Shown here one piece after another: positions 9,601 to 60,750 of a stretch of DNA of 64,000 nucleotides. The translations under genes were made by a program, and so were the position numbers. Each line of letters opens with the position of its first letter. The stretch's first letter is position 1. The notes beneath the pieces were generated by a model. It was given only the letters and a program-made list of their open reading frames with translations, was not told where the DNA came from and did no database searches. Origin of the DNA: an uncultured Thermoplasmatales archaeon (GTDB taxonomy: Archaea; Thermoplasmatota; E2; DHVEG-1); assembly GCA_964467345.1 (NCBI GenBank), contig CAYXPY010000001.1:82986-146985 (forward strand). The letters run 5' to 3'.

Positions 9601-9825
9601 CCCATGTTTTATGCGGGCACAACAAAATTAATCGAAACAAGCATTGGTGCAGTACAGGGGGAAGGGATGATGATGATCTCGATTGGCTCTGAAGAGGTTT
9701 TACTGAATTCAAGTTGGGGTTTTGCGTCAGGGTTTTATTTTGCTTGCCTGGCGGTCCTAGTAGCCATGATAGCAATAGTTTTAGATATCAAATTGCGGTT
9801 TAAACAGAAGAAAAAATTATTATGA
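6643..9825 (+). CDS. Large exported protein (1060 aa). N-terminal signal peptide, carboxypeptidase-regulatory-like beta-sandwich repeats, and a C-terminal domain of about 5 TM helices.
   Basis: Signal-peptide-like MRRSYLSVVGILLLLALPALSM. Long hydrophilic body with an IDGNGNGIPG-type motif. The last ~250 aa are strongly hydrophobic. Confidence 0.6.
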   Translation: MRRSYLSVVGILLLLALPALSMPISSQDDTSLLWNPAYKDWPHRQELQLPIPTNDPRAHYQPIDLRHRFEKSCWTENENNTSIRVSCWHKEQWHNLDSQIYSILQENGKVSSITECNIIFLIPDFADGTERYFVYYSDDRTSKPNYIDHVMLEDANYTSSPLPELSAQARFYGIKQDGFCIYGVGQEGTLLDRSCAQVVVKQNRGTKEFDIINSDQIISFAFSYYYGSKEKDESASDQIFLDKKIFVDGNLMVEFGIISESKKKDVQTTAIYRYYYCPCEDKRIYVHVKHEMLKDAAVQGIDNIDGRFGSLISLKAKSAAVESLNFGEIHPFLNFYSHNERIEQYQLNQNPSTKEREWIISYKNDASLGSEAWLSYGEGKKGKSKAVIFSSNEDIVISGTDEQDGVQIKVAEKEYLNFLGTEVDYVSINFGRRSYKPGGSHDVTIPSDLTVQFDAEVYATDTGGYEAVQKESTFYKALIKSRKLSGENQFEREQKRYNITIIPRFGGTRLTHPRLSNRTGSLFPVMWVELHREGQLIAQGVADRVLFVRARKTFLDILEGEYLVKVFFKTERRKVFTGSTIVILNKDTKVNVFCTWERIIQFTFIDGNGNGIPGIHAWLTNKDGMIFDENDTKDEGVGIVRAPYNANEPYSLRAEYKGIIIYESGLQKSLKKLNVEVIVNLYTFDVIITDRLNLPPGIDIIPLLIKSNGNKTQPLTAIDRGNGLFTFEELPKGEYHLQISYGEFIDTIHITIPGESNVIRMSFSAAFDLTIQLFDSKGNGLTNDNIEFVILRDNKTISKTKDKIITLPPAHYKINAYLDNKLIGVKQVELISDKHLMLVTTVESLFPLLLSLLLYVLFAFFVILTLLKKFSLSSLLKSLAVLFVIFSLFQPWWLFTGSSARLPIEKTTALYINPGMMIETKQYYGELTLTLAEMPEIFIMFLAAMVPLASFACISISLGIILKRTPKKKYAFFLSVFGVVLLAILLPMFYAGTTKLIETSIGAVQGEGMMMISIGSEEVLLNSSWGFASGFYFACLAVLVAMIAIVLDIKLRFKQKKKLL

Positions 9826-11373: not shown

Positions 11374-13398
11374 TTATCGTTCATCGCTACGAAGGGTGGT
11401 CTTTTGCGTCTTACGCTCTGATTCGAGTTCTACTTTCCCAATGATTTTAGGAGGGCGCATTTCTTTTAATTTTCGCAAAAGCTCTTCTTTCCCAGTTCCT
11501 ACCAGTGCATTTTGAAGAACATCGGTCAACGTTTCAACAGGGATAATTTCAATAATTGTTTTGTATTTATCCTCGATTAACACATCATTGAGATTTGCTT
11601 TCGGTATAAGTACGGTCTTGACTCCTGCCTCTGCAGCAGCCTCAATTTTTGCTGTCACACCACCGATTGGTAACACAGTTCCTCGGATGCTTATCGAACC
11701 TGTCATCGCGACATCCTGCCGCACTGGGACATTCTCCATAGCGGAAATGACAGCTGTTATCAGAGAAATGCTTGCTGAGTCGCCTTCTACACCTTCGTAG
11801 GTACCGATGAACTGGATGTGTATATCGTGTTTGGAGATATCTCGTCCCATATATTTTTTAATAATCGCAGAAATATTCTGAACCGATTCTTTCGCAATAT
11901 CACCAAGTTTGCCTGTGGCAATGACTTTTCCCTCTGATTGTGACCCTGCAGGTGTGACTTCTGCGACGATGGGCAGGACCAATCCGGAGAATTCACTCAT
12001 TGATGGATCAGCAGAATGGACTGCAAGTCCATTGACAACACCGACCTCTTCACCTAACGTTCTAAAGGACCGATAGCTCTTTTGCGATTCCAACGCCCTG
12101 TCTGCTACCTGCTGTTCTAGGGATCGTGCGATACGTTTTGCTTCAATGACATGATTCGGTGTGATGATTGTGTCGGCACGTTCATACGCAATATCTCCAG
12201 CCACTCGGATCAAACCACCAAGTTCACGTAATCGAAGTGATAGTTTTCCTTTCCGACCTGCCCGGCGTTGTGCTTCGTGAATGACCTCTGCGACTGCTTC
12301 TTTGGTAAAATGATGGATTTTCCCATCTTTCTTTACCTCTTGGGCGACAAATCGTATGAGTTTTTCCCGATTTTCATGGGTGTCTTCCATCACACTGTTC
12401 AGATAGCTTTCGTACCCATATCCTCGTATTCGAGATCGTAGTGCAGGATGCATACCATTTAAAGCATCAAGGTTCCCTGCGGAAACAAGAATAAAGTCAC
12501 AGGGAGCAGGCTCTGTTTTTACCATCGCACCAAAACTTCGCTCCGATTGTCCCGTAATTTGAAATTTTTTCTCCTGGATAGCGGTTAATAAATGTTGCTG
12601 TGAGGGTAACCCTAATGTGTTTATCTCATCGATATAGAGGACTCCTTTATGTGCGCGGTGAATAGCCCCCGCTTCGACAAGCTGATGTGGAGGTGTTTCC
12701 AAACCAGCTGACTGGAAGGGATCGTGACGCACATCTCCGAGTAATGCACCGGAATGTGCAGCGGTTGCATCAATAAATGGAGGGACATCATTTTTCTCAT
12801 GCGACACTAACAGTTTTGGAATCATTTGTAATTCTCTCCTCTGAGAAAATCCACCTCTTGCCACTATAAGATAAACCATGACGGCAGCAATGACCCCGAA
12901 AATTGCGTATTCGAATCGTTCTGTGACTATCGCTCCTATAAGAGACAGGGTTACTATTAATAAAACAATACCAAGAATCATGCTGTTTTGTTGTTCTACC
13001 TTTCTTTTTGCATCATCCCGTTGTGCTCGAATGATTTCTTGAGCTTTTCCTGCGGGGACGACACGTATTGTTGGGGTATTTGTGTCTTCGCTGTTTGGAT
13101 AGACAATTATATCTTCGAGTTCTCCTTTGGGTAAGAACTCAGTCATAGCACGAGCAACCATTGATTTCCCGGTCCCTGGGTCGCCAATAAGCATCACGTG
13201 TCGTTTCTGTTCGGCTGCCTTCTTGACGATAGCGACGGTTTGGTCTTGACCTATGACTTGATCAAGGAGGCTCTCGGGTACTTTGATGTCCTCAGTGGTA
13301 TTAAATTTAATATCCTGAATCCATTTATCGATAGGAGGTAACTCCTCTGTTTCTTGTTCATTTTTTTCTAGCGGGATATCTGTCTGTTTTTTAGCCAT
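11374..13398 (-). CDS. lonB: Archaeal membrane-bound ATP-dependent Lon protease (LonB).
   Basis: Walker A GDPGTGKS, a TM insertion within the AAA+ module, and a C-terminal Lon protease domain with the Ser-Lys dyad region. ATG at 13396-13398; the track's upstream TTG adds 2 aa. Confidence 0.9.
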
Positions 13399-13514
13399 GG
13401 TCAAAACACCTATTTACGAGCGTCTGGTTTCGCATCCTCTTTTAAGACCCATCGACATATACACATGACGTATTTCAATTTTTTTCTTACCTGTAAAATG
13501 TATCGCCGTTGGCT

Positions 13515-20092: not shown

Positions 20093-20116
20093 ATGCATAT
20101 GCAATTACATATGCAT
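20093..20116. promoter_or_regulatory. 24-bp near-perfect palindrome ATGCATATGCAA/TTACATATGCAT over the annotated start of the beta-helix surface protein gene.
   Basis: One mismatch between the half-sites. An in-frame ATG at 20126 begins a signal peptide, so the palindrome may lie in the 5' leader. Confidence 0.5.
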
Positions 20117-23100
20117 GAGGATGGGATGAAACTAAAGAAATTGCTGATAGTGATTATTGGTATCTTACAATTTACACAATGTATGGGTTTTTTGGGTCTC
20201 ATCCAGACAAGCAAAGCAGATACACCCCCCACACTCTATGTAGGACAGCAGGAGACCTACACGCACATCCAGGATGCACTCGACGATGCGGCAGATGGCT
20301 ATAGAATCTTTGTCTACAACGGCACCTATAACGAGAACCTGATTATCAACAATCGAATCGACCTCTTTGGTGAAGATCGGAGCAATACGATCATCATAGG
20401 CGACGCAACGACAGTGATAACAGTAAATGCAGATAACGTCAATATCAGTCATTTTACAATAAAAAACAACGGTCCATTAGAAGCAAGTAGCGTTCTTCGT
20501 ATAAACGGCTTGAACTCGATTATAACTGATAACATCATTTCAGATGGATACCACGGAATTTACCTCTATAACACATATAATCATCTAATCTATGACAATG
20601 TGATTATCAATAATTCAGGGGATGGTATACGACTCTATCAATCATATAATATCATCAATATTAGTTATAATTCAGTATCCAAAAATAAGAACGGCATCTA
20701 CCTGTACGAATCAGATGGAGTCCGGATTTACAATAATAAGCTCCAAAATAACAACCAAAGCGGCATCTTCCTTAACAGCACATGCCAGAATAATATCATC
20801 AGCAAGAATAATGCTTCTCAAAATGGCGTCCATGGGATCTACTTAAACGACTACAGTGATTATCAAACGATAGTAGACAATCAAATCTTCTACAATAAAA
20901 ACTCAGGATTGGTTTTAGAAAACTGTAGTATGAATTTAAAAATAGACGGAAACACAGTCATAGGCAACACCAATTATGGTATAATGATTATAGGTTCAAC
21001 AAACAACATCAGTAACAACCTTGTTTCTCAGAATAAAAAAGACGGTATGTATCTCTCTGCTGACGATCATAACATGATTTATAAAAATACTATCACGTAT
21101 AACACACTCGCAGGAATCCGGATGTATAATTCTACCTATAACTACATCCGAAACAATAGAATTGGTTTTAACAAAGAATGTGGTATCTATCTTGATTTTT
21201 TTACCATACATAATCTGATTTACAATAATTACTTCCAGGACAACACAAAAAATGCAATTGATAAGAGTATCAATCGCAATAGATGGAATATCACGAGAAC
21301 AACCGGAACAAACATAATCCAAGGAACAACACTCCATGGTAACTACTGGGATGACTTTGATGAATCCAGTGAGGGAGCAATAGATGATGACTCAGATGGG
21401 GTTGCAGATGCACCATACACAATTTATGCTTTGAACACGGACAAAGGACCCATTCTTGATACAATAAATCCTTGGATACAGCTTCCTGTTGCATCTCCGG
21501 TTTCACAAACATTAGGAAGGAATACAAATCTTACCGTTCTAATAACTGACAATACGAAAATCAAGGAGGTTTATCTTAATATCTCTGGCCCAAACGGTCA
21601 GCGATTCAACACGAGCATCACTCAAAATAAGACAGGAGACACGTACTATTGTAATAAAATATTCTCATCGACTGGCAATTATACGTTTTTTATTGCTGCA
21701 CGAGACCCACGGAATTGGAACTTTTCGGCAAATCAGACATTTTCCATTCGACCTGGAGAAAAACCAACAGTAAAAGACAATTCACCGTTGACTGCAAAAC
21801 CTTCAAAGAAATACACCTTTAATGCAACCGTAACCTCAAAAAACGCCGTCGCCTCTGACCTGCAGGTCTTCGTCAGCTGGAGTCATGGAACTATCAGGAA
21901 TAACTCAACGATGGTACTCTCTCGAGGCAACTATTTTGTCGCAACAGTCACTCTTGCACATAGTATCGAAAATCTTACCTATCATTTCTATGCAACTGAC
22001 AAATGGGGAAGCAGCGTTGTTACTGAAAATAAAAAAATAAAAGTCATCGATACAGAACCTCCTGTGATTCATATCAACCGTTATGGCCCATCTGTTCAGG
22101 ATTTTCCAAATAGTTACACCTATGAAGCAACAATAACCGACGACTCTATTGTATCAACAGTGACGATCGAATATTGGTATAACAGCAGCAATAAGATGAA
22201 GACAAATATGGATTCAATGACAAATAATCGCTATAAAAAAGTGATTATTTTTGATGACGACACCCCTGAACTTTTTTGCATCATCAATGCAACTGACATC
22301 GCAGGAAACAAAAATGATACCAGGAATCCTATCGCATGTCACAACGGTCCATATAACGGTTTTATTCTCCAAGAGATAACATTTAATGGATCGAAGAGTT
22401 TCGATCTCGATGGAACGATTACCAATTATTCATGGGATTTCGGTGACGGTACAACAGCAAACAATTCCCTAGCGACACATGCGTATTTTTCAAGCGGTAC
22501 CTATACTGTGACATTAACTGTGACCGATGATCAAGGAAAAAAAGGAACAAACCAGACCCGTATTACAGTCATCCCATTCTCCCAACATTTGATACCGCTT
22601 GATCAACTTGCCCTCATTAACACAAGGTATAATCTTAATCTCAGTGAACCTTTCTTCTGTTACGATTCCGATGGTAATGGAGCTGTAGATAAATTTGTCG
22701 ATCCTGCCCAGATACTTATCACCATTCATGATACGCCACTGAATTTCAACAGCAACACCTTATTTTTAATTTCAATCGGTGAAGATGCTATTCCTGAATT
22801 CTTCTGGGAAACGACGACTGATCTGATTTTCCCTATTACACACACGATAGGAATGATTCAGAACAAGATAGTCGATGATTTAAATGAACAAGCTAAATTA
22901 TATGTCACAGTTGACAAGGGACAATGGATCTATATAGAAATCGATGATCCATACCCTGATTCACCAGTCACCATTACTACGAAAGGCAGGATGCTTTCTG
23001 CCGATAATTATTGGAGGAAAAATCAAAAAATCTATGTCTTTGACGATCCTGAAACCAGCTACGAGTTTCTTTTTATTAATATTTTCCCACCGCTGAGTGT

Positions 23101-23767
23101 GATCTTTTCACCAGCTGACGGGGGAGTGATCGATGGCGATTATCCAACAATCAGAATTACATATAATGCACCAGTGACCATCATCTCTGCGATATTTAAT
23201 CAAGACGACATTCATGCTGAGCTACTACGTTTAGACGATAAAAGTTACTTGTACACACCCCCAGGCTATCTGGAAAATGGAACGTATGAACTTGAAATCC
23301 AGGCGCAGGCTCTGCAAGGAAAAGGATACCTCGCCACTTCAGCTGTGTATTTTTATTTTTCCTATGAGCCAGCACCCCAGAAGAGTTTTCTTGAAAACAA
23401 CTGGTTTTTGATACTCACAGGTATTTTGGTTGGTATGATTGGAGGTATGCTGGTATTCTTTAGAACAAAGGATATCACCATTGAGGGATTTGTCTATCTG
23501 AGGAACAAAAAAATCATCCCGTTTTTTAAATCTGTTATCGTTGGACCTGTAAGCATCCAGATACCTCAGGAGCAGTTCAGCAAAGCCGAATTTTATATTG
23601 ATGGGCAACTGAAAGACGAAGTGACATCCTTTCCGGTCCGTTGGCAATGGAACGAAAAAGCGTTCCTGAAGCATACGCTTGAAACAAAAATTTATGACCA
23701 GGAAGGAAACAGCGCTTCAAGTGGTGAATTAGAATTCTATATTTTCAACCCGTTAAAAGGTAAATAA
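20093..23767 (+). CDS. Large cell-surface protein (1224 aa). Signal peptide, right-handed parallel beta-helix (NosD/pectate-lyase-like) repeats, a PKD domain, and a C-terminal TM anchor.
   Basis: Recurring NxxxxNxxxGIYL beta-helix repeats. WDFGDGTTANNSLATHAY PKD signature. Hydrophobic FLILTGILVGMIGGMLVFF near the C-terminus. Alternative start at 20126. Confidence 0.7.
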   Translation: MHMQLHMHEDGMKLKKLLIVIIGILQFTQCMGFLGLIQTSKADTPPTLYVGQQETYTHIQDALDDAADGYRIFVYNGTYNENLIINNRIDLFGEDRSNTIIIGDATTVITVNADNVNISHFTIKNNGPLEASSVLRINGLNSIITDNIISDGYHGIYLYNTYNHLIYDNVIINNSGDGIRLYQSYNIINISYNSVSKNKNGIYLYESDGVRIYNNKLQNNNQSGIFLNSTCQNNIISKNNASQNGVHGIYLNDYSDYQTIVDNQIFYNKNSGLVLENCSMNLKIDGNTVIGNTNYGIMIIGSTNNISNNLVSQNKKDGMYLSADDHNMIYKNTITYNTLAGIRMYNSTYNYIRNNRIGFNKECGIYLDFFTIHNLIYNNYFQDNTKNAIDKSINRNRWNITRTTGTNIIQGTTLHGNYWDDFDESSEGAIDDDSDGVADAPYTIYALNTDKGPILDTINPWIQLPVASPVSQTLGRNTNLTVLITDNTKIKEVYLNISGPNGQRFNTSITQNKTGDTYYCNKIFSSTGNYTFFIAARDPRNWNFSANQTFSIRPGEKPTVKDNSPLTAKPSKKYTFNATVTSKNAVASDLQVFVSWSHGTIRNNSTMVLSRGNYFVATVTLAHSIENLTYHFYATDKWGSSVVTENKKIKVIDTEPPVIHINRYGPSVQDFPNSYTYEATITDDSIVSTVTIEYWYNSSNKMKTNMDSMTNNRYKKVIIFDDDTPELFCIINATDIAGNKNDTRNPIACHNGPYNGFILQEITFNGSKSFDLDGTITNYSWDFGDGTTANNSLATHAYFSSGTYTVTLTVTDDQGKKGTNQTRITVIPFSQHLIPLDQLALINTRYNLNLSEPFFCYDSDGNGAVDKFVDPAQILITIHDTPLNFNSNTLFLISIGEDAIPEFFWETTTDLIFPITHTIGMIQNKIVDDLNEQAKLYVTVDKGQWIYIEIDDPYPDSPVTITTKGRMLSADNYWRKNQKIYVFDDPETSYEFLFINIFPPLSVIFSPADGGVIDGDYPTIRITYNAPVTIISAIFNQDDIHAELLRLDDKSYLYTPPGYLENGTYELEIQAQALQGKGYLATSAVYFYFSYEPAPQKSFLENNWFLILTGILVGMIGGMLVFFRTKDITIEGFVYLRNKKIIPFFKSVIVGPVSIQIPQEQFSKAEFYIDGQLKDEVTSFPVRWQWNEKAFLKHTLETKIYDQEGNSASSGELEFYIFNPLKGK

Positions 23768-24684: not shown

Positions 24685-27600
24685 TCACGTTTTGAAATCA
24701 ACAATCATTTTGTAGATATAGGGAAGCTGTATTATAAATCTGCTTCCTTTACCAACCTCACTTTCAGCCCAAATCGTTCCATTGTGTTTTTTGATAATTT
24801 CTTTTGATATAAACAACCCAAGACCCGTGCCTTCATTATTACGGTCTTCGCCTGTATATGCTTGATAGAATTTTGTAAAAATTTTTTTGAGTTCATCTTG
24901 GGAAATCCCAATCCCAGTGTCCACAACGGAAATTAAAATATGATTATCTTTCTTTTCAACATCTAAACCGATGAAACCGCAGTCGGTGAATTTAAGGGAA
25001 TTTCCTATAAGGTTTTTTAACACCTGAGATAAACGAATTTTGTCACCAATGATATGGGGTAGTTGCGTTGGGATATTGACCTGGAATTCTAGTTTTTTAT
25101 TGATAATTGCTGGTCTCATGTCCTCGACGATTTCATTGAGGAATTCAACAGGATCTATTTTTTCCATATCGAATCGCATCGTGTCGCTATCAAGTCGTGC
25201 GACATCCAAGATGTCATTGACAAGTTTCAGAAGTCGTTCTGCGTTTCGGAGACTGATTTTCGCCCAATTCCGAATCTTTTCATTGCTTTCATTATCGTGA
25301 ATGATGAGATCCAGGTATCCTTTTATAGGAGTGACAGGTGAGCGAAGTTCATGAGCTGCGATGTTCATGAACTCTGTCTTTAATCGTTCGTTTTTCTTTA
25401 ATTCATCTTCAATTTCTCTCCGTTGGGTGATATCACGGACGGTACAGACAACACCACCGAATTCTGTTTGTTTCGTCAGAGGTGCTATGTTGACTTCGAT
25501 TGGGATAATATCACCATTACCAGATACAAGTTCCAATTCAACGTTCTCAATCTTATCGTTTTTCTTTCGTACATCAATAAAAATTTGTTGGAAGAAATAG
25601 ACTGAATCCTCAAGAAGATAGTTACGAAACGGTGTTGCTAATATCTGACTTTTCCGTCGTCCACATAGTTTTTCAAAAGAAGGATTTACATAGGTAAGCC
25701 GTCCTAGTGAATCTGTCGTAAACACGCCATCAGCAGAAGTTTCAGCAAGGATACGATATTTCTCCTCAGACTTCACAAGTTCTTCCCAGACTTTCTTACG
25801 ATCGGTGATATCCTCGATAGATCCTACGACATATTCAGGTGTATTTATTCCATCGAAAATGATGGTAAAGGTGTCCCGCATCCACCTATAACCTCGTGTT
25901 TTATGTTTGAAGCGGTATTCGATTGATTGAACAGCATTTTCTTTTAATTCATTAGATTTGATTATGTCAAGATGCTGGGTCCATTGAAGAGAATCCTCCG
26001 GATGGATGAATTCTTCTATCTTTTTTATGGGATAAGCGGTCATCTCCTTTGGCCCATATCCTATAACTTTCATTGAAGACGGGCTGACATAATCACAAGT
26101 TTGATTCTTTAAATTAAACTGATAGATCATATCAAGGGAGTTTTCCAAAACCACCTGAAATCTCTTTTCATTGTCACTTGCTGTTTCAACTGCGTTGAAG
26201 TTTTGATTATTATCGATATAGAAACCCATGATTGAAAAAGGTTGAGCCGATTCATTTTTGATCATATTAGCATAAAGCTTCGCCTGAAATGTAGTCCTGT
26301 CTTTTCTCACGCATGTTATCTCACCAATCCACTGCTTCTTCTGGTTCAGTGTCTGGACTATTTCATTAGTTTGTTCTTTCATGGTCCAGAATTTCGTCAC
26401 TGATTTTCCGATGATATCTTTATTGTGAGTATAGCCCCACATTCTGAGAAATGAATCATTTGCATAGGTGATCTTTCCATTCAGGTCAATTAAGGTAATC
26501 GGACAAATTGAGGATGCTATCGCGTCATCTTTTATTTTCATAAGATCTTCATTGTTTTTTCGTTTGGTAATATCAGACAGAACGACAAGATATCCAAAAC
26601 TCTGTTCTTGTTCGTTTAAAAGAGGTGATGCGTAAATGATGCCTCTCCTCTGTTTGTTCTGTTTCGAAACGACATCGATTTCAACAGGCACGGATTTTTT
26701 GACAACTTTACCCTTTAAAAAAATCTTTTTAATCGTTCGTCTAGATTCTTTTGTAAACAAGGGCAAATTATAAAAATTCATCCCTTTTATTTGATAGGGC
26801 GGACAGGTGACCCATTCGGTGATTGTGTTATTTGTATCTACTATCACACCATCATTATCTACGAGAATAATCGCATGTGGAAAAAAGTCGAACATCATGC
26901 GATGAAGGTTTTCCTGTTCCAATAACATGTCTTGTGTTTTTTTATTCTCAGTGATATCCTTTGAGATAACCAAAACCTCATTTATTTGAGAAGTCGAAGC
27001 ATCTTTCACAGGATTAATGGTCCTAGTGAACCAACTCCCATTCCTACTATGTGTATCTTTCAGAGGTAGCTCGTGATCCAATACCCAGGACAGCTTTTCT
27101 GTAAACTCCTTAGTTTCTTCAGGTGAATGAAAATCATGATAGGTTTTTCCTAACACGTCTATCCGCGTACGACCAAGTTGTGACAGGAACGCGTCATTTA
27201 CCATAAGATATCGGCAATTCGCGTCTAAGAGGCATATCGAGTCGTCCGAATATTGAATAATTGATTCGAGATGTTTTTCTTTCCGTTTTTGTTCTGAGAT
27301 ATCTTTTATGATGTACAGATACCCAAGATTTTTTCCATTAACGTTTTTCAAATTACATAAGGAAACCACGGCATCCAGTGTACCTTGGTTTTTCGAAAGT
27401 ATCTTTGTTTGTATTTGGTGCTGGAGACCCATGTGATTTTCTAATTTTCTTTCCAAGGTTGACCATTCATTTGTTGAATGAAGTGAAGCAACTGATTGTA
27501 AATACAGTTCGACATCGGTTTTTTCAAGGAGGGTTTCCGTATAAGCATTCCAGGAGATAATGCGTTTTTGTGTATCTAGAACAAGAATAGCAAGCAGTGA

Positions 27601-27822
27601 GTTTTCAAACGCATTGCGATAGATTACTGAAAGATGCTCAGGACTAAGAGTATTGCATCGTGTTTGAAAAGGTTCTAAAAGGACAGTGGACGTATCTGAA
27701 TTCTCTGTGAAGCGATCATCTGATTTTGCTATCGTCTTACCATTGCGGGAGGTTTTTTCCTGAGAGTTCCTTATCCGTTCTTCCTCTCGTAATATTTTTA
27801 CAATTTCAGGTTCGCTTGTCAT
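24685..27822 (-). CDS. Multi-PAS sensor histidine kinase.
   Basis: HisKA H-box FMNIAAHELRSP. HATPase_c N/G boxes (VVDTGIGI, GTGLGL). Five or more PAS/PAC repeats. The internal ATG (MTSEPEIVKILREEER) is preferred because a paralogous N-terminus occurs in the 52663..54060 protein. Confidence 0.85.
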   Translation of the reverse strand: MTSEPEIVKILREEERIRNSQEKTSRNGKTIAKSDDRFTENSDTSTVLLEPFQTRCNTLSPEHLSVIYRNAFENSLLAILVLDTQKRIISWNAYTETLLEKTDVELYLQSVASLHSTNEWSTLERKLENHMGLQHQIQTKILSKNQGTLDAVVSLCNLKNVNGKNLGYLYIIKDISEQKRKEKHLESIIQYSDDSICLLDANCRYLMVNDAFLSQLGRTRIDVLGKTYHDFHSPEETKEFTEKLSWVLDHELPLKDTHSRNGSWFTRTINPVKDASTSQINEVLVISKDITENKKTQDMLLEQENLHRMMFDFFPHAIILVDNDGVIVDTNNTITEWVTCPPYQIKGMNFYNLPLFTKESRRTIKKIFLKGKVVKKSVPVEIDVVSKQNKQRRGIIYASPLLNEQEQSFGYLVVLSDITKRKNNEDLMKIKDDAIASSICPITLIDLNGKITYANDSFLRMWGYTHNKDIIGKSVTKFWTMKEQTNEIVQTLNQKKQWIGEITCVRKDRTTFQAKLYANMIKNESAQPFSIMGFYIDNNQNFNAVETASDNEKRFQVVLENSLDMIYQFNLKNQTCDYVSPSSMKVIGYGPKEMTAYPIKKIEEFIHPEDSLQWTQHLDIIKSNELKENAVQSIEYRFKHKTRGYRWMRDTFTIIFDGINTPEYVVGSIEDITDRKKVWEELVKSEEKYRILAETSADGVFTTDSLGRLTYVNPSFEKLCGRRKSQILATPFRNYLLEDSVYFFQQIFIDVRKKNDKIENVELELVSGNGDIIPIEVNIAPLTKQTEFGGVVCTVRDITQRREIEDELKKNERLKTEFMNIAAHELRSPVTPIKGYLDLIIHDNESNEKIRNWAKISLRNAERLLKLVNDILDVARLDSDTMRFDMEKIDPVEFLNEIVEDMRPAIINKKLEFQVNIPTQLPHIIGDKIRLSQVLKNLIGNSLKFTDCGFIGLDVEKKDNHILISVVDTGIGISQDELKKIFTKFYQAYTGEDRNNEGTGLGLFISKEIIKKHNGTIWAESEVGKGSRFIIQLPYIYKMIVDFKT

Positions 27823-27904
27823 AATTCCCTTCCGAGGAATACCTGTAAGTATTTTTGCATCCCATTTTTGCATCCCATTTGAAATAAAAAAACCTACTGT
27901 TTGT

Positions 27905-29752: not shown

Positions 29753-31477
29753 TCACATCTCCTTTGGAGCAGAGATTCCTAGTAAATCAAGGGCATTATG
29801 AAGAACGATTTTTGTTGCGTGTACAAGGGCAAGCCGTGAGGAGCGAATCGAACTGTTTTCCTCAGATAGTACAGGGCAATCTCGATAGAATTGGTTGAAC
29901 GCTGAGGCTGTTTCGAAAAGGTAGTTTGTTACAAGATGTGGTTTGTAGCTGTTACAAGCGTCTTCAATGATAAGGGGGAATCTAGCTAGTTTTTTAATCA
30001 GTGTGGTTTCCGATCCATGGATTAATAGTGCAGGATCAAAGATATGTTCCATGATAGTTACTTTCGAAAGGATGCTGCATGCTCTCGCATGGGAATATTG
30101 AATGAAAGGAACCGCATTACCTTCGAAATTCAGGGCATCTTCCCAGGTAAATACAATGTCTTTTTCTGGTTGAACTTTTATGATATTGTACCGGAGAGAT
30201 CCGATACCGATTAATTCTGCGATTTTTCTCATTTCTGATTCTTCGAGTTCGTCAGATCTCCTTTTTTTAATCTCTTCATAGGCATGTTCGATGCATTCAT
30301 CTATAAGCTCATCAAGGTAGACGACCCGGCCTTTTCGGGTGGACATTTTCCCACCAGGTAAGGAGACAAATGCGTAGAAGACGACCTGGGGAAGGATCTT
30401 TGTTTTTAGAAGTTCGAGAGCCACGGTCACTTGTTTGGATTCCAGTTTATGGTCCTCCCCGAGTACATTGATGAGGATGTCTGCTTGATTTGCTTTCCAT
30501 CGATGGTAGGCGATATCCCTTGTCGCGTAGAGTGTGGTACCATTGCTTCTTAAAAAGAAAAATTTGGTATTTCTTCCATGGATACCAAATGGTTCCATAT
30601 CGATATAGAATGCTTTGTCTTCCTCACGGCAGTATTGTGTTTGTTTTAATTCTTTGACCACCTGGTCAACGCTTTTGTTATATACGAAGGTTGATTCAGG
30701 GATGTACGTATCAATGGTGATATGTATTCTCTGTAGACTTTGTTGTATACCGGCAAGCACGGGGGCGTACGCTGTATGGATCAATTCTATAGTTTTTTCA
30801 TCACCCTGTTCCAATTTTTTAACGATATCACCAATCTGTTCCGCTATGGTGCAATCCAGACCCATGCGCTCATTTGCAGTCTGATAGTATCCAACCATTT
30901 GATGATCAGCTTTTTTATAGTCTGACGGGGGGATGTCCTTTTGGTTCAGATTTTTAACCCCCCAGGCTAGAATCGCCACTTGTTTTCCCAGATCATCAAG
31001 ATAAAATTGTGATTCCACATCGTATCCTGCTGCCTTGAAGAGCCTTACGAGAGTATCACCGATGATGGGGTTTCTTGCGCGGCCAACATGCAAGGGACCA
31101 TTTGGGTTTGAAGAGGTATGCTCGATAATCACTTTTTTATTCTTTTTTTTCAGATGTCCATAGGTTTCTTTTTTTTCTAAAACTGATTGGAGTGTAAGAG
31201 AGGATAGTTCAGTAGTGTTTATGAAAAAGTTCACATAACTGCCCTTTGCTACTACGTTGGTAATCCAATTGCTTTTTGGAATGTCCTTGACAATCTGGGC
31301 TGCGATGTCAGCAGGGGATTTTTTTAGGAGCGGGGCAAGTTGGAAGCAAGGGAAAGCAAAATCACCCATGTTTTCTGGCGGGGTTTCAATTTTGATTTCA
31401 AAAGCAATATTAAATTTTGAGATAGCTTTTTGAATTCTTGATTTGATTTCATTTTTGCATTCTTCAAGCGGATACAT
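29753..31477 (-). CDS. argS: Arginine--tRNA ligase.
   Basis: Class I HIGH-type motif PNGPLHVGRARNPIIGD, a KMSTRKG-like KMSKS motif, and a C-terminal DALR anticodon-binding region. Confidence 0.9.
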   Translation of the reverse strand: MYPLEECKNEIKSRIQKAISKFNIAFEIKIETPPENMGDFAFPCFQLAPLLKKSPADIAAQIVKDIPKSNWITNVVAKGSYVNFFINTTELSSLTLQSVLEKKETYGHLKKKNKKVIIEHTSSNPNGPLHVGRARNPIIGDTLVRLFKAAGYDVESQFYLDDLGKQVAILAWGVKNLNQKDIPPSDYKKADHQMVGYYQTANERMGLDCTIAEQIGDIVKKLEQGDEKTIELIHTAYAPVLAGIQQSLQRIHITIDTYIPESTFVYNKSVDQVVKELKQTQYCREEDKAFYIDMEPFGIHGRNTKFFFLRSNGTTLYATRDIAYHRWKANQADILINVLGEDHKLESKQVTVALELLKTKILPQVVFYAFVSLPGGKMSTRKGRVVYLDELIDECIEHAYEEIKKRRSDELEESEMRKIAELIGIGSLRYNIIKVQPEKDIVFTWEDALNFEGNAVPFIQYSHARACSILSKVTIMEHIFDPALLIHGSETTLIKKLARFPLIIEDACNSYKPHLVTNYLFETASAFNQFYRDCPVLSEENSSIRSSRLALVHATKIVLHNALDLLGISAPKEM

Positions 31478-36550: not shown

Positions 36551-36654
36551 GATTACTCACCCTGCATGAGATTTTGCTTTAGAATGAGACTACATCAGCA
36601 GGGTGCATATAAAACTACGTTTGAAGGTTTCAAAGTAACATAAAAAAAGAAGGA

Positions 36655-36728
36655 CGGACCTGTCGGGATTTGAACCCGAGTCAGAGGCTCCGGAGGCCTC
36701 TGTGATATCCAAGCTACACTACAGGCCC
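36655..36728 (-). tRNA. tRNA-Arg (anticodon CCG).
   Basis: Reverse complement folds as acceptor GGGCCTG/CAGGTCC (one G-U pair), anticodon arm GAGGC-CTCCGGA-GCCTC, and T-arm TCGGG-TTCAAAT-CCCGA. 74 nt, no encoded CCA. Confidence 0.8.
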
Positions 36729-36880
36729 AAGACAACCCGGCTAATCCGCAGAAGAATTAATAGGTTTTGCGTGGTCTTTCTTTTTTCTTTATATAGATAG
36801 TTTTAGACAAAGAGTAATATTCTATTCGGAATCTCAAAACACTATGGAAAAAACGTAGCAAAAGAAATCCTACTGCCAAT

Positions 36881-49579: not shown

Positions 49580-51250
49580 TCAGCTGAGCTGAACCTGCAT
49601 CTTGTTGAGAAGCAAGGAGAGGAAGGCGGAGAGGAACGGATGCTTCTGTAGAAATGTTTTTAGGAAATCAAATTCGAATTGTGATACGAGTGGCATGTTC
49701 ACATCAAGGGTCGCCCATGGACTTTCTGCATTAAAAACGTCTTTTGCTTTTACTTTGACTTGATAGGTTCCTTTCTTTGTCCATGAGTGATTGGCATGTA
49801 CGACGAAGCCTGGTGGGAACGCACCAAGCCATCCTGTGTTGCTGCCATCGCCCCAATCGATCCAGTAGAAGATTGGATCCATATCTAGGTCCGTTGTGGT
49901 GGTGTTGAACATATACTGTTGTCCGGGTTTCCCTTTCGCAGGTCCTGTGATCGTAGGGGTATTGGGTGCATTATCAATGGTAACTGTGTCAGAATCGGGT
50001 GTGGGGTCGATGTTTCCGACCGTATTAATCGCACGAGCATCCATCACATGAGGGCCATGGGGGAGCGGAAATGTGGTGAACATGTAGTTCTCGACAGGCT
50101 GGTTATAGAAACCATCGCTGGGTATCGCTGCATTCCAATATCCACCGTCTATGCGATAGAGCACGACCATAATATTGTTTATTGATACATCGTTGCCTGG
50201 ATTGTGCGTCTGGGGATTATTATTTGGATAGGGGACTTCGGTTGCAGTACCCGTATAGGTGAGAGTCTGGAGTGGTGTTGGATCCTGCGGATAGGGATTT
50301 AACACTGTTTCCGGGAAGGTGTCAACGATATCTTGAATCGTGTCCATATCGGTGTCTCTCCAGCCAACCTGAAGCTTTGTTCCTGAAGAAAGTACAAGAG
50401 CATTGGTATCCATCAGACACCCTGATCCTTCGATATCAGCAGCATTCAGGTACCCACTGTATTCGGTGATTCCATCATATTCATCGGTTGCCCAGAAGAT
50501 GTGCCCGGTCTCGTGGGCCATAACTTGGTTCATGGCAGAGATACCCCATCCGTCGTTATCGTAGGTCATCACGAGATACGGACCACCGAGGAAGGCGTAG
50601 GCGAAATACCCATCCGAGAAATTTCCACCTACATCGTTGCTGCTATCAACGAGAAACACGGTAAAGCACCAATCGGTTCCTTTTGCAGTTCGCATCGCGT
50701 TAACATAATCCCGTGTTCTCTGCATCCAGTCACCGGTCGTGTACCCAAGATAAGCCATCGCCTCACATACCCAGAGTTTCTCGTAGGTAGGATCGGTCAT
50801 CGCAGAAGGATGAATGATTGGTTCATAACTCGTTGGTACAGCTGTGTGAACATCCAAGACATAGCTAAGACTAGCCCATTGATTCTGGCCGACCCACCAG
50901 GACATGGCTTGATTGATCTGGGTTTGAACATTGTTTATTTCTGTTGGAGTCCAATTTTCTGTGTTTGGATCAATTGCTCCATTACTTTCTAGGAAAATCA
51001 ACCCGACTGACACAGAACCGATTAAGTATTCGCTTGTGTCGTAATAACCAGGTTCAGGACCAGATGGAGAGGTCATGACGGAAGGGTCTACGTAGCGGAG
51101 GAGGTCATCGCTGAGTACTTCGATTTCACCTGGACATTCGTTTGTTAGGTTTTGTGTGTTTTCAATTCTTTTTTCAGTGTGCGCAGAAAGTGCCAAGGTG
51201 CTTACGCATAATAAGCCTATTATAAAATAACAAACAATCTTAGTTTTCAT
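49580..51250 (-). CDS. Secreted zinc metalloprotease, M6 (immune-inhibitor-A)-like, with a C-terminal PKD-like domain and conserved tail.
   Basis: Signal peptide. HETGHIFWATDEYDG matches the M6 HEXXHXXGXXDEY motif. C-terminal IDWGDGSNTGW...HSWTKKGTYQVKVKAKDV PKD-like domain. Confidence 0.7.
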   Translation of the reverse strand: MKTKIVCYFIIGLLCVSTLALSAHTEKRIENTQNLTNECPGEIEVLSDDLLRYVDPSVMTSPSGPEPGYYDTSEYLIGSVSVGLIFLESNGAIDPNTENWTPTEINNVQTQINQAMSWWVGQNQWASLSYVLDVHTAVPTSYEPIIHPSAMTDPTYEKLWVCEAMAYLGYTTGDWMQRTRDYVNAMRTAKGTDWCFTVFLVDSSNDVGGNFSDGYFAYAFLGGPYLVMTYDNDGWGISAMNQVMAHETGHIFWATDEYDGITEYSGYLNAADIEGSGCLMDTNALVLSSGTKLQVGWRDTDMDTIQDIVDTFPETVLNPYPQDPTPLQTLTYTGTATEVPYPNNNPQTHNPGNDVSINNIMVVLYRIDGGYWNAAIPSDGFYNQPVENYMFTTFPLPHGPHVMDARAINTVGNIDPTPDSDTVTIDNAPNTPTITGPAKGKPGQQYMFNTTTTDLDMDPIFYWIDWGDGSNTGWLGAFPPGFVVHANHSWTKKGTYQVKVKAKDVFNAESPWATLDVNMPLVSQFEFDFLKTFLQKHPFLSAFLSLLLNKMQVQLS

Positions 51251-58873: not shown

Positions 58874-59758
58874 ATGGATTCGATGACCGTACTGATTATT
58901 TCTTCAACAGAGGATCCTGCAAGTATAAATATGAAACAAGGGCTTTTAGAACAAACAACATGGGAGGAACAGGGAACCTTCTACAACTTCCCTGTCCTAA
59001 GACATTGTTTCATGAAGAATCTTATGTTAGTCACAATCCCGGATAAAAAAATACGGCATGAAAACATCGATCTTGAGATTGAAGAACAATTACATCTCAC
59101 CCCCAAGATAGCTATTTTTCTGTCAAGACATCGCAGTAAAATGGGGGAACCAACTCTTACGGTTCATCCTATTGGTAATTACGGGGATGCAGAGTTTGGG
59201 GGGAAACCAAAAACCTTAGTACGTGCGGCCCCAAGGATGATGACGCATCTTCTCCGGCTTATTAAAAAAAACCTCATGACAACGAGTCTTGAGTATCAAG
59301 TCTGTTACGAGGTGACTCACCATGGACCGTTTTTAAGGATCCCAACACTGTTTGTTGAGGTGGGAAGCACGGAGGAACACTGGCAGAAAAAGGAGCCTGC
59401 ATCGGTAATCGCAACGTCCCTGCTGGAATTGTTTTCAAAATATCACTATGAAGAAGACTATCCAAAGGACATCCCTGTGTTGATTGGGATTGGCGGGGGG
59501 CATTATGCACCTCGATTTACCGATGTCGCGTTTCAGAAAAACATTGCTTTTGGTCATATGATACCATCGTATCATATTGACGTGGGAAACATCGATTGGA
59601 CGATGATCCAAGCAGCGATACAAGCCACACCTGATACGTCTGGGGTCTATCTTCATAAGAAATCATTGAAAAAATCACAGGTCACCAGTTTTAGACAGAT
59701 GATAAGCGATCATGGCATCCCCGTCGTCTCTAGTGACGAGTTACCTGCCTTGATGTAG
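58874..59758 (+). CDS. dtdA: D-aminoacyl-tRNA deacylase, archaeal type (DTD2).
   Basis: About 290 aa, with SRHRSKMGEPTLTVHPIGN and GGGHYAPRF segments characteristic of archaeal DtdA. Confidence 0.7.
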   Translation: MDSMTVLIISSTEDPASINMKQGLLEQTTWEEQGTFYNFPVLRHCFMKNLMLVTIPDKKIRHENIDLEIEEQLHLTPKIAIFLSRHRSKMGEPTLTVHPIGNYGDAEFGGKPKTLVRAAPRMMTHLLRLIKKNLMTTSLEYQVCYEVTHHGPFLRIPTLFVEVGSTEEHWQKKEPASVIATSLLELFSKYHYEEDYPKDIPVLIGIGGGHYAPRFTDVAFQKNIAFGHMIPSYHIDVGNIDWTMIQAAIQATPDTSGVYLHKKSLKKSQVTSFRQMISDHGIPVVSSDELPALM

Positions 59759-60673
59759 GTGTTGGTTTGCGAGTTGATGGGCACGGCGCAATGGCTCTGG
59801 GTTTTTCGTTTGACAGAAGTGTTTGACGACATCTACACTTGTTTTGAGAGACACACGATGTCCTGGTGAAACATAAATGGGTCGAACGTCTTTTCGTAAG
59901 GAAAACGCATATCCCCTGCTTTCAGAATCGATGATCACCTGAGAATCTCGTATGGTGCCATAGAGAAGGGTTTTTGCCACACCAATCGTCGGTATGTCCA
60001 GAGTAATTCCTGCATGAGATGCAAAGCCACACCGTGCAGGATGGATGATGCCGTTTCCATCAAGTAATACCAGAGAGGGTTTTAATCGGAGCTTACTAAC
60101 CAGTGTGTGGACAAGCGGAAGTTCCCTATATGAAAAATACGTTGAAATGAATGGAAAATCCGTCCGTTCGAATACCACGGATTCTTCGAGAACATTCATG
60201 TGTGTATAGTCAAGAACAACACAGGCTCCACAGGCTTCATCAAACTCATTATCAGGATAGGCGACGTCAATACCAGCGACGGTTTTGATATCAGTAAAAT
60301 CATCAGTCAGTGAGATTTTTTTACTGAGCTGGATTTGTTCCTCACGGAGCTTTTTCAAAGGATACGTTGTGTTAAAATCATCAAAGAATACGTTGTCAAA
60401 ATCAACAATCCTGCCGTTTTCAACGGAAATTGAGTCCTGGTGTAATCTCCGTATTTTATCCTGTATACCTAAGCCAAACCCACCGAGTCGTCCATCGGAA
60501 TAGACGATTTTAAAGCAGGGCATGTCATCAGCATTTGGATTCTGGTTCATCATACGGCCTACAGCTCTCGCTGCGATTTTATCACCTAATGCAACCGCGA
60601 CCGCCCCATAGGTGGAGACCTTTCCAGGGGGGATTTGCCGTACCAAATCGTAGGTGTACTCAAAAAGATTCAT
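59741..60673 (-). CDS. nfi: Endonuclease V fused to an N-terminal MGMT-like (O6-alkylguanine alkyltransferase fold) domain with an altered active-site motif.
   Basis: C-terminal EndoV motifs GIDVAY, LLDGNGIIHPARCGFASHAG, PTIGVAKT. The N-terminal ~95 aa (TYGAVAVALGD...AARAVGRMMNQNP...MPCFKIV...GRLGGFG) match the MGMT C-domain, with PCHR replaced by PCFK. Confidence 0.8.
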   Translation of the reverse strand: MNLFEYTYDLVRQIPPGKVSTYGAVAVALGDKIAARAVGRMMNQNPNADDMPCFKIVYSDGRLGGFGLGIQDKIRRLHQDSISVENGRIVDFDNVFFDDFNTTYPLKKLREEQIQLSKKISLTDDFTDIKTVAGIDVAYPDNEFDEACGACVVLDYTHMNVLEESVVFERTDFPFISTYFSYRELPLVHTLVSKLRLKPSLVLLDGNGIIHPARCGFASHAGITLDIPTIGVAKTLLYGTIRDSQVIIDSESRGYAFSLRKDVRPIYVSPGHRVSLKTSVDVVKHFCQTKNPEPLRRAHQLANQHLHQGR

Positions 60674-60750
60674 ATAGAAACATCAATTATGCGGTGTATA
60701 TATTTTCCCCTGTATACTCCTGAAGATAAATCTGGAGAATTTGAACTCGT

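What the first reader, a model, noticed from the sequence alone, without database searches (positions are those of the whole stretch)
59741..60673. Endonuclease V fused to an MGMT-like domain in which the catalytic PCHR motif reads PCFK.
The C-terminal 215 aa are a canonical EndoV. The N-terminal ~95 aa have the helix-turn-helix and Asn-hinge region of O6-alkylguanine-DNA alkyltransferases (AARAVGRMMNQNP). An EndoV-AGT fusion is known from Ferroplasma and Thermoplasma. Here the acceptor Cys is kept, but the His and Arg of PCHR are replaced (PCFK). His in PCHR is part of the network that activates the cysteine. This domain may therefore be a damage-binding, ATL-like module that recruits EndoV, not a suicide alkyltransferase.
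Basis: partly seen in the sequence, partly recalled or inferred. Interest (0 to 1): 0.5.

Follow-up and report, generated by a model that had tools for sequence, protein, structure and literature searches.

The report
AGT-EndoV fusion repair protein, PCFK site
This archaeal gene encodes a known type of two-in-one DNA repair protein (an alkyl-damage-removal domain fused to endonuclease V), and its odd active-site motif is the normal one for this fusion family, so it does not indicate a dead enzyme.

Summary
ORF 59741-60673 (-) encodes 310 aa: an MGMT/AGT C-terminal-type domain (Pfam PF01035, res 6-80, E=7e-22) fused to an intact endonuclease V (PF04493, res 115-300, E=2e-57). Gap-free alignment to human and M. 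tuberculosis AGT puts Cys53 on the acceptor Cys, Phe54 on His146 and Lys55 on Arg147.

The "ATL-like, non-catalytic" reading is not supported. Among 407 full-length fusions, PC[YF][KR] is the commonest motif. All 39 sequences at least 60% identical to the Ferroplasma Type II protein carry xCY[KR] plus Asp at the Glu172 position, and so does Picrophilus Q6KZ38. The F. acidarmanus fusion is reported to have both AGT and EndoV activity.

In the window's clade (123 sequences) Cys53, Tyr22, Arg36 and Asn45 are invariant, while Phe and Tyr swap about 13 times. The N-domain is more conserved than the EndoV domain. Fusions that truly lost the Cys also lose the Arg finger and Asn hinge.

Most likely this is an AGTendoV orthologue from an uncultured Thermoplasmatota archaeon. 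How the Cys is activated without His, and here without even a Tyr hydroxyl, is unresolved. I did not see the F. acidarmanus sequence itself.

The parts
59741..60673 (-). Complete CDS, 310 aa plus stop. It encodes an AGT-like domain fused to endonuclease V (AGTendoV type).
   Evidence: ORF list. Pfam PF01035 + PF04493. A 100% identical protein, P0001, occurs on 6 public contigs. AF2 pLDDT 95.8, pTM 0.90.
60389..60673 (-). N-terminal AGT C-domain-like / ATL-sized domain, residues 1-95. It contains the helix-turn-helix, arginine finger, Asn hinge and Cys site. There is no AGT N-terminal alpha/beta domain.
   Evidence: PF01035 at residues 6-80, E=7e-22. TIGR00589 above cutoff. PDB sequence hits are 2kif, 4bhb, 1sfe, 3gva and 1eh6. 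Foldseek top hits are Atl1/vpAtl over ~100 columns, then AGT C-domains at rmsd 1.7-2.1 A.
60509..60520 (-). Active-site tetrapeptide Pro52-Cys53-Phe54-Lys55, in the position of the canonical PCHR motif.
   Evidence: Sequence ccc tgc ttt aaa. Gap-free alignments to M. tuberculosis OGT and human MGMT. The 120 closest homologues have PCFK in 64, PCYK in 54 and PCFR in 2.
60608..60610 (-). Tyr22, equivalent to human Tyr114 (nucleotide flipping / proton donor).
   Evidence: Offset +92 to human MGMT. Invariant in all 287 Cys-Tyr and Cys-Phe class fusions.
60566..60568 (-). Arg36, equivalent to the human Arg128 arginine finger.
   Evidence: Invariant in the Cys-Tyr and Cys-Phe classes, but kept in only 26/48 Cys-less fusions.
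60539..60541 (-). Asn45, equivalent to the human Asn137 hinge.
   Evidence: Asn in 285/287 of the Cys-Tyr/Phe classes, but in only 4/48 of Cys-less fusions.
60434..60436 (-). Asp80, at the position of human Glu172 (partner of His146 in canonical AGT).
   Evidence: Gapless offset +92 extrapolated. Asp in 254/287 PC[YF]x fusions versus Glu in 42/47 PCHR fusions. The review states the characterised AGTendoV has Asp here.
59774..60331 (-). Endonuclease V domain, residues 115-300, with catalytic residues D136, E184, D205, K234 and H299. The wedge motif reads P-F-I-S where T. maritima has P-Y-I-P.
   Evidence: PF04493 E=2e-57. Alignment to T. maritima EndoV 2w35/3hd0. Foldseek rmsd 1.5-1.7 A over ~210 residues. 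Family-invariant columns are D136, Y139, F173, P174, E184, H211, K234 and P292.
60697..60706 (-). Candidate archaeal TATA box (AAAATATATA on the minus strand), 24-33 nt upstream of the ATG. This would fit a leaderless transcript. It is an inference only.
   Evidence: Read directly from the sequence. It lies in a 77-nt divergent intergenic region shared with the MBL-fold gene that starts at 60751. Not tested.

Best explanation
The gene encodes an orthologue of the archaeal bifunctional repair protein AGTendoV, which is known from Ferroplasma acidarmanus and annotated in Picrophilus.

The C-terminal domain is a catalytically intact endonuclease V. [quoted passage not shown]

The N-terminal domain is a single-domain O6-alkylguanine-DNA alkyltransferase. 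It binds the minor groove through its helix-turn-helix. It flips the damaged base out using Arg36 and Tyr22. It then most likely transfers the alkyl group irreversibly to Cys53.

The site reads PC[F/Y]K plus Asp80, where canonical AGTs have PCHR plus Glu. This is a family-wide remodelling of the second shell around the cysteine and does not signal loss of function.

Shown here: the architecture, the residue equivalences, the conservation pattern, and the sharing of the motif with the Ferroplasma/Picrophilus lineage.

Inferred: that the Phe variant transfers alkyl groups as the Tyr variant is reported to do, and how the thiol is activated without His.
For: 1. Domain calls and residue mapping.

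2. The N-domain aligns gap-free with Picrophilus torridus Q6KZ38, named 'Bifunctional methyltransferase/endonuclease' (54% identity, PCYK), and with Ferroplasma Type II EQB73062.1, named 'O6-methylguanine-DNA methyltransferase/endonuclease V' (48% identity, PCYK). The PCHR-bearing DHVE2 protein needs a 2-residue gap.

3. All 39 sequences >=60% identical to the Ferroplasma protein have xCY[KR] plus Asp. The review PMC10779285 reports that F. acidarmanus AGTendoV repairs O6-alkylguanine and has Asp at the Glu position.

4. Among 407 fusions, the Cys-Tyr class (206) and Cys-Phe class (81) keep Tyr114 and Arg128 at 100% and Asn137 at 99% (285/287).

5. In the window's clade (123 sequences, >=55% identity) Cys53 is invariant, while Phe<->Tyr changes about 13 times by parsimony. 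So the hydroxyl is dispensable and the Cys is not. 34/95 N-domain columns are invariant against 25/205 in EndoV.

6. Lineages that did lose the Cys (PxHR) show erosion of the Arg finger and Asn hinge. This is the pattern expected when transfer chemistry is abandoned, and it is not seen here.

7. The gene sits in synteny conserved across 18 species-level genomes, so it is a stable, vertically inherited gene.
Against: No protein with Phe at the His146 position has been assayed. Phe cannot take part in any proton relay, so activity could be much lower than in the Tyr form.

I could not retrieve the F. acidarmanus fer1 sequence or the primary paper (Kanugula 2005 is not held). That the characterised enzyme has PCYK is therefore inferred from all its congeners and from the review's remark about Asp.

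The best PDB sequence hit and the top fold hits for the N-domain are ATLs. One of them, Vibrio vpAtl, reads PWFR and so also has Phe at this position.

Asp80 is not absolutely conserved in the clade. The species-representative loci L015, L017 and L019 read Ala or Val at that position (read from the sequences). In the 407-sequence census the minority residues are Val/Asn/Glu/Ser in the Cys-Tyr class and Glu/Asn/Thr in the Cys-Phe class.

Strict conservation of Cys is also compatible with a structural or lesion-contact role.
Confidence: 0.6

Rival explanations
1. The N-domain is an ATL-like, non-catalytic lesion sensor that happens to retain the Cys. It would bind and flip O6-alkylguanine and hand the site to the fused EndoV, which nicks 3' of the lesion to start an excision route.
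For: - His146 is replaced by Phe, which cannot act in the Glu-His-water-Cys relay described for canonical AGT.
- The domain lacks the AGT N-terminal domain, and its best PDB matches are ATLs, including vpAtl with PWFR.
- ATL-EndoV fusions are reported in archaea. They are seen here as PxHR proteins such as L021 (PLHR) and P0334 (PFHR).
- The AF2 pTM of 0.90 suggests a fixed two-domain unit that could act on one DNA.
Against: - ATLs are defined by loss of the Cys, and here the Cys is invariant across 287 PC[YF]x fusions.
- The same motif class includes the Ferroplasma lineage, whose member is reported active as an AGT.
- True Cys-less fusions show a different, relaxed conservation pattern.
Confidence: 0.25
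2. The N-domain is only a generic helix-turn-helix DNA (or RNA) anchor. It would raise the affinity or processivity of EndoV and have no alkyl-lesion specificity.
For: - Many fusion lineages have lost the Cys, Arg finger and Asn hinge yet keep the domain. So the domain has some value to EndoV that does not depend on AGT chemistry.
- The review relays a speculation that extra DNA contacts in the fusion may aid translocation.
Against: In this clade every lesion-handling residue (Tyr22, Arg36, Asn45, Cys53) is invariant. The N-domain is about three times more densely invariant than the EndoV domain. That is hard to explain for a non-specific anchor.
Confidence: 0.08
3. The conserved Cys performs a different chemistry. 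Examples would be acting on another adduct class (O4-alkylthymine, bulky or carboxymethyl adducts) or working as a redox or regulatory thiol, with a pocket reshaped by class-specific residues.
For: Class-specific covariation accompanies the His-to-Tyr/Phe change. There is an acidic residue at position 49 (human Ile141) in 33/38 non-redundant PC[YF]x proteins. There are basic residues at positions 75/76. Lys replaces Arg at 55 and Asp replaces Glu at 80.
Against: There is no direct evidence for this. The characterised family member is reported to repair O6-alkylguanine. The covarying sites could simply re-stabilise the loop.
Confidence: 0.07

Closest known systems
Ferroplasma acidarmanus AGTendoV (Kanugula et al. 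2005 PNAS) and its annotated orthologues (Ferroplasma Type II EQB73062.1; Picrophilus torridus Q6KZ38 'Bifunctional methyltransferase/endonuclease')
   Same: - Same architecture: an AGT C-domain-like module of about 95 aa, with no AGT N-terminal domain, fused N-terminally to a full EndoV.
- Same non-canonical active-site class: PC-aromatic-K plus Asp at the Glu172 position.
- Same loop lengths, with gap-free N-domain alignment at 48-54% identity and about 40% identity over the full length.
   Different: - Phe is found here where the Ferroplasma/Picrophilus proteins have Tyr at the His146 position.
- The EndoV wedge reads PFIS where theirs reads PYIP.
- The host is an uncultured, sediment-type Thermoplasmatota lineage whose closest named relative is the MAG SM1-50. 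It is not an acidophile of the Thermoplasmatales.
- The gene neighbourhood differs: DTD2 and an MBL-fold gene here, an MMPL transporter gene in Ferroplasma.
Canonical O6-alkylguanine-DNA alkyltransferases (human MGMT, E. coli Ogt/Ada-C, M. tuberculosis OGT, Sulfolobus OGT)
   Same: Same fold of the C-terminal domain (rmsd 1.7-2.1 A). It shares the helix-turn-helix, Tyr114, the Arg128 finger, the Asn137 hinge, and Pro-Cys at the acceptor position.
   Different: - There is no N-terminal domain.
- His146 is Phe, Arg147 is Lys and Glu172 is Asp, so the described Glu-His-water-Cys relay cannot exist.
- It is fused to EndoV.
Alkyltransferase-like proteins (S. pombe Atl1, E. coli YbaZ/Atl, Vibrio vpAtl 2kif, T. 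thermophilus TTHA1564)
   Same: It is a single-domain protein of ATL size. ATLs are its best PDB sequence and fold matches, and vpAtl also has Phe at the His position (PWFR). The Tyr and the Arg finger are retained.
   Different: ATLs have Trp, Ala or another residue at the acceptor position. Here the Cys is kept and is invariant. ATLs are stand-alone proteins that recruit NER, whereas this domain is covalently tied to a nuclease.
Cys-less AGT-like::EndoV fusions ('ATL-EndoV' of archaea, noted by Tubbs et al. 2009 according to PMC10779285), e.g. Thermoplasmataceae L021 (PLHR), Thermoplasmatales archaeon AK P0334 (PFHR)
   Same: Same two-domain architecture and the same phylum. The EndoV domain is intact.
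   Different: They keep His-Arg but have lost the Cys (to L, V, I, F, S, G, T, A and others). They often also lack the Arg finger (kept in 26/48) and the Asn hinge (kept in 4/48). They are 34-35% identical to the window protein.
PCHR-type AGT::EndoV fusions (e.g. DHVE2/Aciduliprofundum-like L020, P0388)
   Same: Same architecture. This is the closest non-clade relative by overall identity, at 46-47%.
   Different: They have canonical PCHR plus Glu and a 2-residue longer loop after the active site.

Membership tests
AGTendoV-type bifunctional fusion (AGT-like domain + endonuclease V) | A single polypeptide with an N-terminal PF01035 domain and a C-terminal PF04493 domain | tested here: met
   Pfam residues 6-80 and 115-300. 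The same pair is precomputed for all 120 closest homologues.
AGTendoV-type bifunctional fusion (AGT-like domain + endonuclease V) | Acceptor cysteine present at the PCHR-equivalent position | tested here: met
   Cys53 aligns with Cys145 of human MGMT and with the Cys of M. tuberculosis OGT, without gaps.
AGTendoV-type bifunctional fusion (AGT-like domain + endonuclease V) | Active-site class shared with the Ferroplasma/Picrophilus proteins (PC-aromatic-K/R plus Asp) | tested here: met
   PCFK plus Asp80 here, PCYK plus Asp in P0366, P0374 and P0406. The difference is Phe for Tyr.
AGTendoV-type bifunctional fusion (AGT-like domain + endonuclease V) | EndoV catalytic residues (T. maritima D43, E89, D110, K139, H214) | tested here: met
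   D136, E184, D205, K234 and H299 align. Fold match is 1.5-1.7 A.
AGTendoV-type bifunctional fusion (AGT-like domain + endonuclease V) | Demonstrated alkyl transfer to Cys and inosine-specific nicking | not testable with these tools
   This needs biochemistry. It is reported only for F. acidarmanus, via review PMC10779285.
Canonical O6-alkylguanine-DNA alkyltransferase (AGT/Ogt/MGMT) | (I/V)PCHR(V/I) motif, with His146 and Glu172 forming the Cys-activating relay | tested here: not met
   The motif is MPCFKIV. His is replaced by Phe, Arg by Lys and Glu172 by Asp.
Canonical O6-alkylguanine-DNA alkyltransferase (AGT/Ogt/MGMT) | Helix-turn-helix, Tyr114, Arg128 finger and Asn137 hinge | tested here: met
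   Tyr22, Arg36 and Asn45 are invariant in the clade. TIGR00589 scores above its cutoff.
Canonical O6-alkylguanine-DNA alkyltransferase (AGT/Ogt/MGMT) | Two-domain AGT fold with an N-terminal alpha/beta domain | tested here: not met
   The PF01035 match starts at residue 6. Matches to AGT chains start at their residues ~75-100.
Alkyltransferase-like (ATL) proteins | Acceptor Cys replaced (Trp, Ala or other), hence no alkyl transfer | tested here: not met
   Cys53 is present, and Cys is invariant in 287/287 PC[YF]x fusions.
Alkyltransferase-like (ATL) proteins | Only the AGT C-terminal-type domain, with Tyr and the Arg finger retained | tested here: met
   The top Foldseek hits 3gx4, 3gva and 2kif cover ~100 columns. 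Tyr22 and Arg36 are present.
Alkyltransferase-like (ATL) proteins | Lesion binding without repair, with hand-off to excision repair | not testable with these tools
   Requires binding and transfer assays.

The most novel reading that the evidence does not exclude
The Phe54 variant has no residue able to relay a proton to or from Cys53. It found in about a fifth of the sampled fusions and has arisen repeatedly from Tyr. Two readings follow.

(a) It is an alkyltransferase whose thiolate is generated by a different second shell, made of the class-specific acidic residue at position 49, the basic residues at 75/76, Lys55 and Asp80. That would overturn the view that the Glu-His-water-Cys network is required in AGTs.

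(b) It is a Cys-retaining lesion sensor that directs the fused EndoV to nick next to O6-alkylguanine. That would be an alkyl-damage branch of the EndoV alternative excision pathway.
Probability: 0.25. Interest if true: 0.6.

Novelty: new member of a known kind. Interest (0 to 1): 0.3.

Why it matters
This is mainly a clean annotation result. The gene is a bifunctional alkylation/deamination repair protein of a type characterised in 2005, and it should not be recorded as a pseudo-enzyme.

The wider survey adds some modest points:
- AGT-like::EndoV fusions form a large family, with more than 100 clusters at 50% identity.
- They have three recurrent active-site states: PCHR, PC[YF][KR], and Cys-less PxHR.
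- The non-His state is the commonest in the set sampled here. A 2023 review still states that all AGTs carry PCHR.

The His-free, and here hydroxyl-free, site is a natural test of how much the Glu-His relay contributes to cysteine activation. That question bears on engineered SNAP-tag-type proteins.

Tried and rejected
1. Primary literature. Kanugula 2005 (by PMC id and DOI), Tubbs 2009, Tubbs 2007 and Pegg 2011 are not held. Full-text searches for PCYK/PCFK with alkyltransferase terms, for H146A, and for AGTendoV found nothing beyond the 2023 review. So I could not read how the authors described the motif, or any data on His146 mutants.

2. The F. acidarmanus fer1 sequence itself. Two homology searches, cluster look-ups and contig look-ups returned many Ferroplasma-lineage proteins, all xCY[KR] plus Asp. 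None was explicitly labelled fer1.

3. A second, canonical ogt gene. A six-frame HMM scan found none in the 64-kb window.

4. Operon clues. The neighbours are housekeeping genes: D-aminoacyl-tRNA deacylase, an MBL-fold protein, a radical SAM protein, DHPS/HPPK and PhzF-like. They are syntenic across the clade, and there is no repair-gene linkage.

5. Model coordinates are not exposed by the tools. Distances around Cys53 and the relative orientation of the two DNA-binding faces could therefore not be measured.

6. Rejected: that the motif is a sequencing or frameshift artefact. The identical protein is on 6 contigs, and the motif class is conserved in hundreds of sequences.
Full report
**What is there.** The minus-strand ORF 59741..60673 is real. 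It has an ATG start and encodes 310 aa. Pfam assigns residues 6-80 to PF01035, the DNA-binding/active-site domain of O6-methylguanine-DNA methyltransferases (E=7.3e-22). It assigns residues 115-300 to PF04493, endonuclease V (E=2.2e-57). NCBIfam's ogt superfamily model TIGR00589 scores above its curated cutoff. The EndoV equivalog models match strongly but below their cutoffs, as expected for a divergent archaeal fusion.

**Residue equivalences.** Against PDB sequences, the C-terminal part aligns with T. maritima EndoV over its whole length, and all metal-binding and catalytic residues are in place: D136, E184, D205, K234 and H299. The N-terminal part aligns without gaps to Vibrio ATL 2kif, M. 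tuberculosis OGT, Ada-C, Atl1 and human AGT. A BLASTP alignment to human MGMT is gap-free from residue 8 to 73 with an offset of +92. This gives:
- Tyr22 = Tyr114
- Arg36 = Arg128
- Asn45 = Asn137
- Cys53 = Cys145
- Phe54 = His146
- Lys55 = Arg147
- Phe66 = Tyr158
- Asp80 = Glu172, by extension of the same offset

The test it proposed as a refutation, that the Cys is not at the PCHR position, comes out in its favour.

**Structure.** An AF2 model built from 71 family members is very confident (pLDDT 95.8). Its pTM of 0.90 suggests the two domains form one rigid unit. The EndoV part superposes on T. maritima EndoV at 1.5-1.7 A. A separate model of residues 1-100 (pLDDT 88.8) hits S. pombe Atl1 and Vibrio ATL first, because these are the only solved single-domain relatives. 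It then hits about 35 AGT C-terminal domains at 1.7-2.1 A.

**How common the fusion and motif are.** The identical protein is on six public contigs. The 120 closest relatives (63-100% identity, uncultured Thermoplasmatota, e.g. the MAG SM1-50) are all fusions. Every one has Cys followed by an aromatic residue: PCFK in 64, PCYK in 54 and PCFR in 2. An exhaustive HMMER scan of 1.84 billion cluster representatives shows that the fusion forms a large family, with more than 100 clusters at 50% identity among the best 150 hits. Three active-site states recur among them: canonical PCHR, PC[YF][KR], and Cys-less PxHR.

**The key comparison.** A species-representative genome scan found a PCHR fusion in a DHVE2 archaeon (L020) and a Cys-less PLHR fusion in a Thermoplasmataceae MAG (L021). 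Searching outward from the latter retrieved three named proteins, all PCYK with Asp at the Glu172 position:
- Ferroplasma Type II EQB73062.1, named by its depositors 'O6-methylguanine-DNA methyltransferase/endonuclease V'
- Ferroplasma sp. WP_337859960.1
- Picrophilus torridus Q6KZ38, 'Bifunctional methyltransferase/endonuclease'

All 39 sequences at least 60% identical to the Ferroplasma Type II protein have xCY[KR] plus Asp. The window's N-domain aligns to the Picrophilus and Ferroplasma domains without a single gap, at 54% and 48% identity. The PCHR form needs a two-residue gap.

**Link to the characterised enzyme.** The 2023 review PMC10779285 states that F. acidarmanus AGTendoV repairs O6-alkylguanine and acts as an EndoV. 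It also notes in passing that this protein has aspartate where other AGTs have the activating glutamate. In my census Asp at that position goes with the Tyr/Phe class (254/287) and Glu with the His class (42/47). I could not obtain the fer1 sequence or the 2005 paper. So 'the characterised enzyme is PCYK' is a strong inference and not a reading.

**Is the Cys under selection?** I aligned 407 full-length fusions.
- In the Cys-Tyr (206) and Cys-Phe (81) classes, Tyr114 and Arg128 are kept in all sequences and Asn137 in 285/287, at least as strictly as in the PCHR class.
- In the 48 Cys-less PxHR proteins, Arg128 survives in 26 and Asn137 in 4. Lineages that gave up the cysteine therefore relax the flipping machinery, and the PC[YF]x lineages do not.
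- Within the window's own clade (123 sequences, down to about 55% identity) Cys53 is invariant. Phe and Tyr interchange about 13 times on a UPGMA/Fitch reconstruction, which is a rough count.
- 34 of 95 N-domain columns are invariant, against 25 of 205 in EndoV.

The hydroxyl at position 54 is thus dispensable, the thiol at 53 is not, and the AGT-like domain is the more constrained half of the protein.

**A remodelled site, not a decayed one.** After thinning to 60% identity (45 PCHR versus 38 PC[YF]x), several columns separate the classes besides position 54:
- Position 49 (human Ile141) is acidic in 33/38 PC[YF]x proteins, against Pro/Val/other in PCHR proteins.
- Positions 75/76 (human 167/168) are basic in the PC[YF]x class, against Glu/Leu.
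- Position 80 is Asp against Glu.
- Position 55 is Lys or Arg against always Arg.

This coordinated set looks like an alternative second shell. What it does cannot be read from sequence.

**Context.** The gene is convergent with a D-aminoacyl-tRNA deacylase gene, overlapping it by 18 nt at the 3' ends. It is divergent from an MBL-fold gene. A radical SAM gene, DHPS/HPPK and a PhzF-like gene lie nearby. This order is conserved in 18 species-level genomes of the clade, so the gene is an old chromosomal resident. It has no repair-operon partner. No second AGT-like ORF lies in the window. An A/T-rich box 24-33 nt upstream of the ATG would fit an archaeal TATA box for a leaderless mRNA, which is an inference.

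**Verdict.** The sequence observation is right. The functional interpretation is weakened. The non-His motif does not mark this protein out from the known Ferroplasma fusion, because it is that family's signature. The conservation pattern is that of a working cysteine site and not that of an ATL.

The most likely function (about 0.6) is a bifunctional AGTendoV. This would combine suicide transfer of O6-alkyl groups to Cys53 with EndoV nicking at deaminated bases.

The ATL-like sensor idea remains possible for the Phe form (about 0.25). No Phe-variant has been assayed, Phe cannot relay protons, and the closest solved relative (vpAtl, PWFR) is a non-catalytic binder.

In kind, this is a new member of a known family. 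The residual interest is mechanistic, namely how a cysteine is activated with neither His nor Tyr next to it.

Noticed in passing
related proteins P0121-P0446; loci L020, L021: AGT-like::EndoV fusions fall into three recurrent active-site states. In 407 sequences these are PCHR (~47), PC[YF][KR] (~287, though sampling is biased towards the query and Ferroplasma), and Cys-less PxHR (~48, with x = L, V, I, F, S, G, T, A, W, Y and others). Fitch parsimony on a UPGMA tree needs about 70 state changes, so the Cys has been lost many times independently.
   Followed up: partly
window 60527-60529 (Asp49), 60446-60451 (Arg75-Arg76), 60434-60436 (Asp80): Some columns covary with the His-to-Tyr/Phe switch. 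Position 49 (human Ile141) is acidic, positions 75/76 are basic, position 80 is Asp where PCHR proteins have Glu, and position 55 is often Lys. This may be an alternative second shell around the Cys. The role is unknown.
   Followed up: partly
window 60143-60154 (residues 174-177, P-F-I-S): The EndoV 'wedge' motif reads PFIS (followed by TY) in this clade. T. maritima and the Ferroplasma/Picrophilus fusions have PYIP(G). From memory, mammalian EndoV has a PYVS-type wedge. Whether this shifts DNA versus RNA preference was not examined.
   Followed up: no
protein P0408 ('MAG: endonuclease V [Ferroplasma sp.]', 300 aa): This Ferroplasma-like fusion has a degenerate AGT-like domain. The active-site region reads ...AYNDYLCRIVYSDG..., and the Asn hinge and the usual loop are missing. 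It looks like a decaying copy.
   Followed up: no
loci L022-L030 (Heimdallarchaeota / Promethearchaeati MAGs): The nearest stand-alone EndoV relatives picked up by the genome scan (34-38% identity to residues ~106-309, no AGT-like domain) are from Asgard archaea.
   Followed up: no
window 59741-59758: The 3' ends of the fusion gene (-) and the D-aminoacyl-tRNA deacylase gene (+, 58874-59758) overlap by 18 nt in convergent orientation. The arrangement is conserved across the clade.
   Followed up: partly
window 6643-9825 (+) and 49580-51250 (-): Two long ORFs (1060 aa and 556 aa) have no Pfam match at E<=1e-5. They were not examined further.
   Followed up: no
window 20093-23767 (+) and 24685-27873 (-): There is a 1224-aa NosD/beta-helix + PKD protein, probably a surface protein. 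There is also a 1062-aa multi-PAS histidine kinase. Elsewhere in the window are an archaeal LonB (11374-13404), an ArgRS (29753-31477) and a single tRNA-Arg(CCG) at 36652-36729. All of this is consistent with an archaeal chromosome.
   Followed up: no
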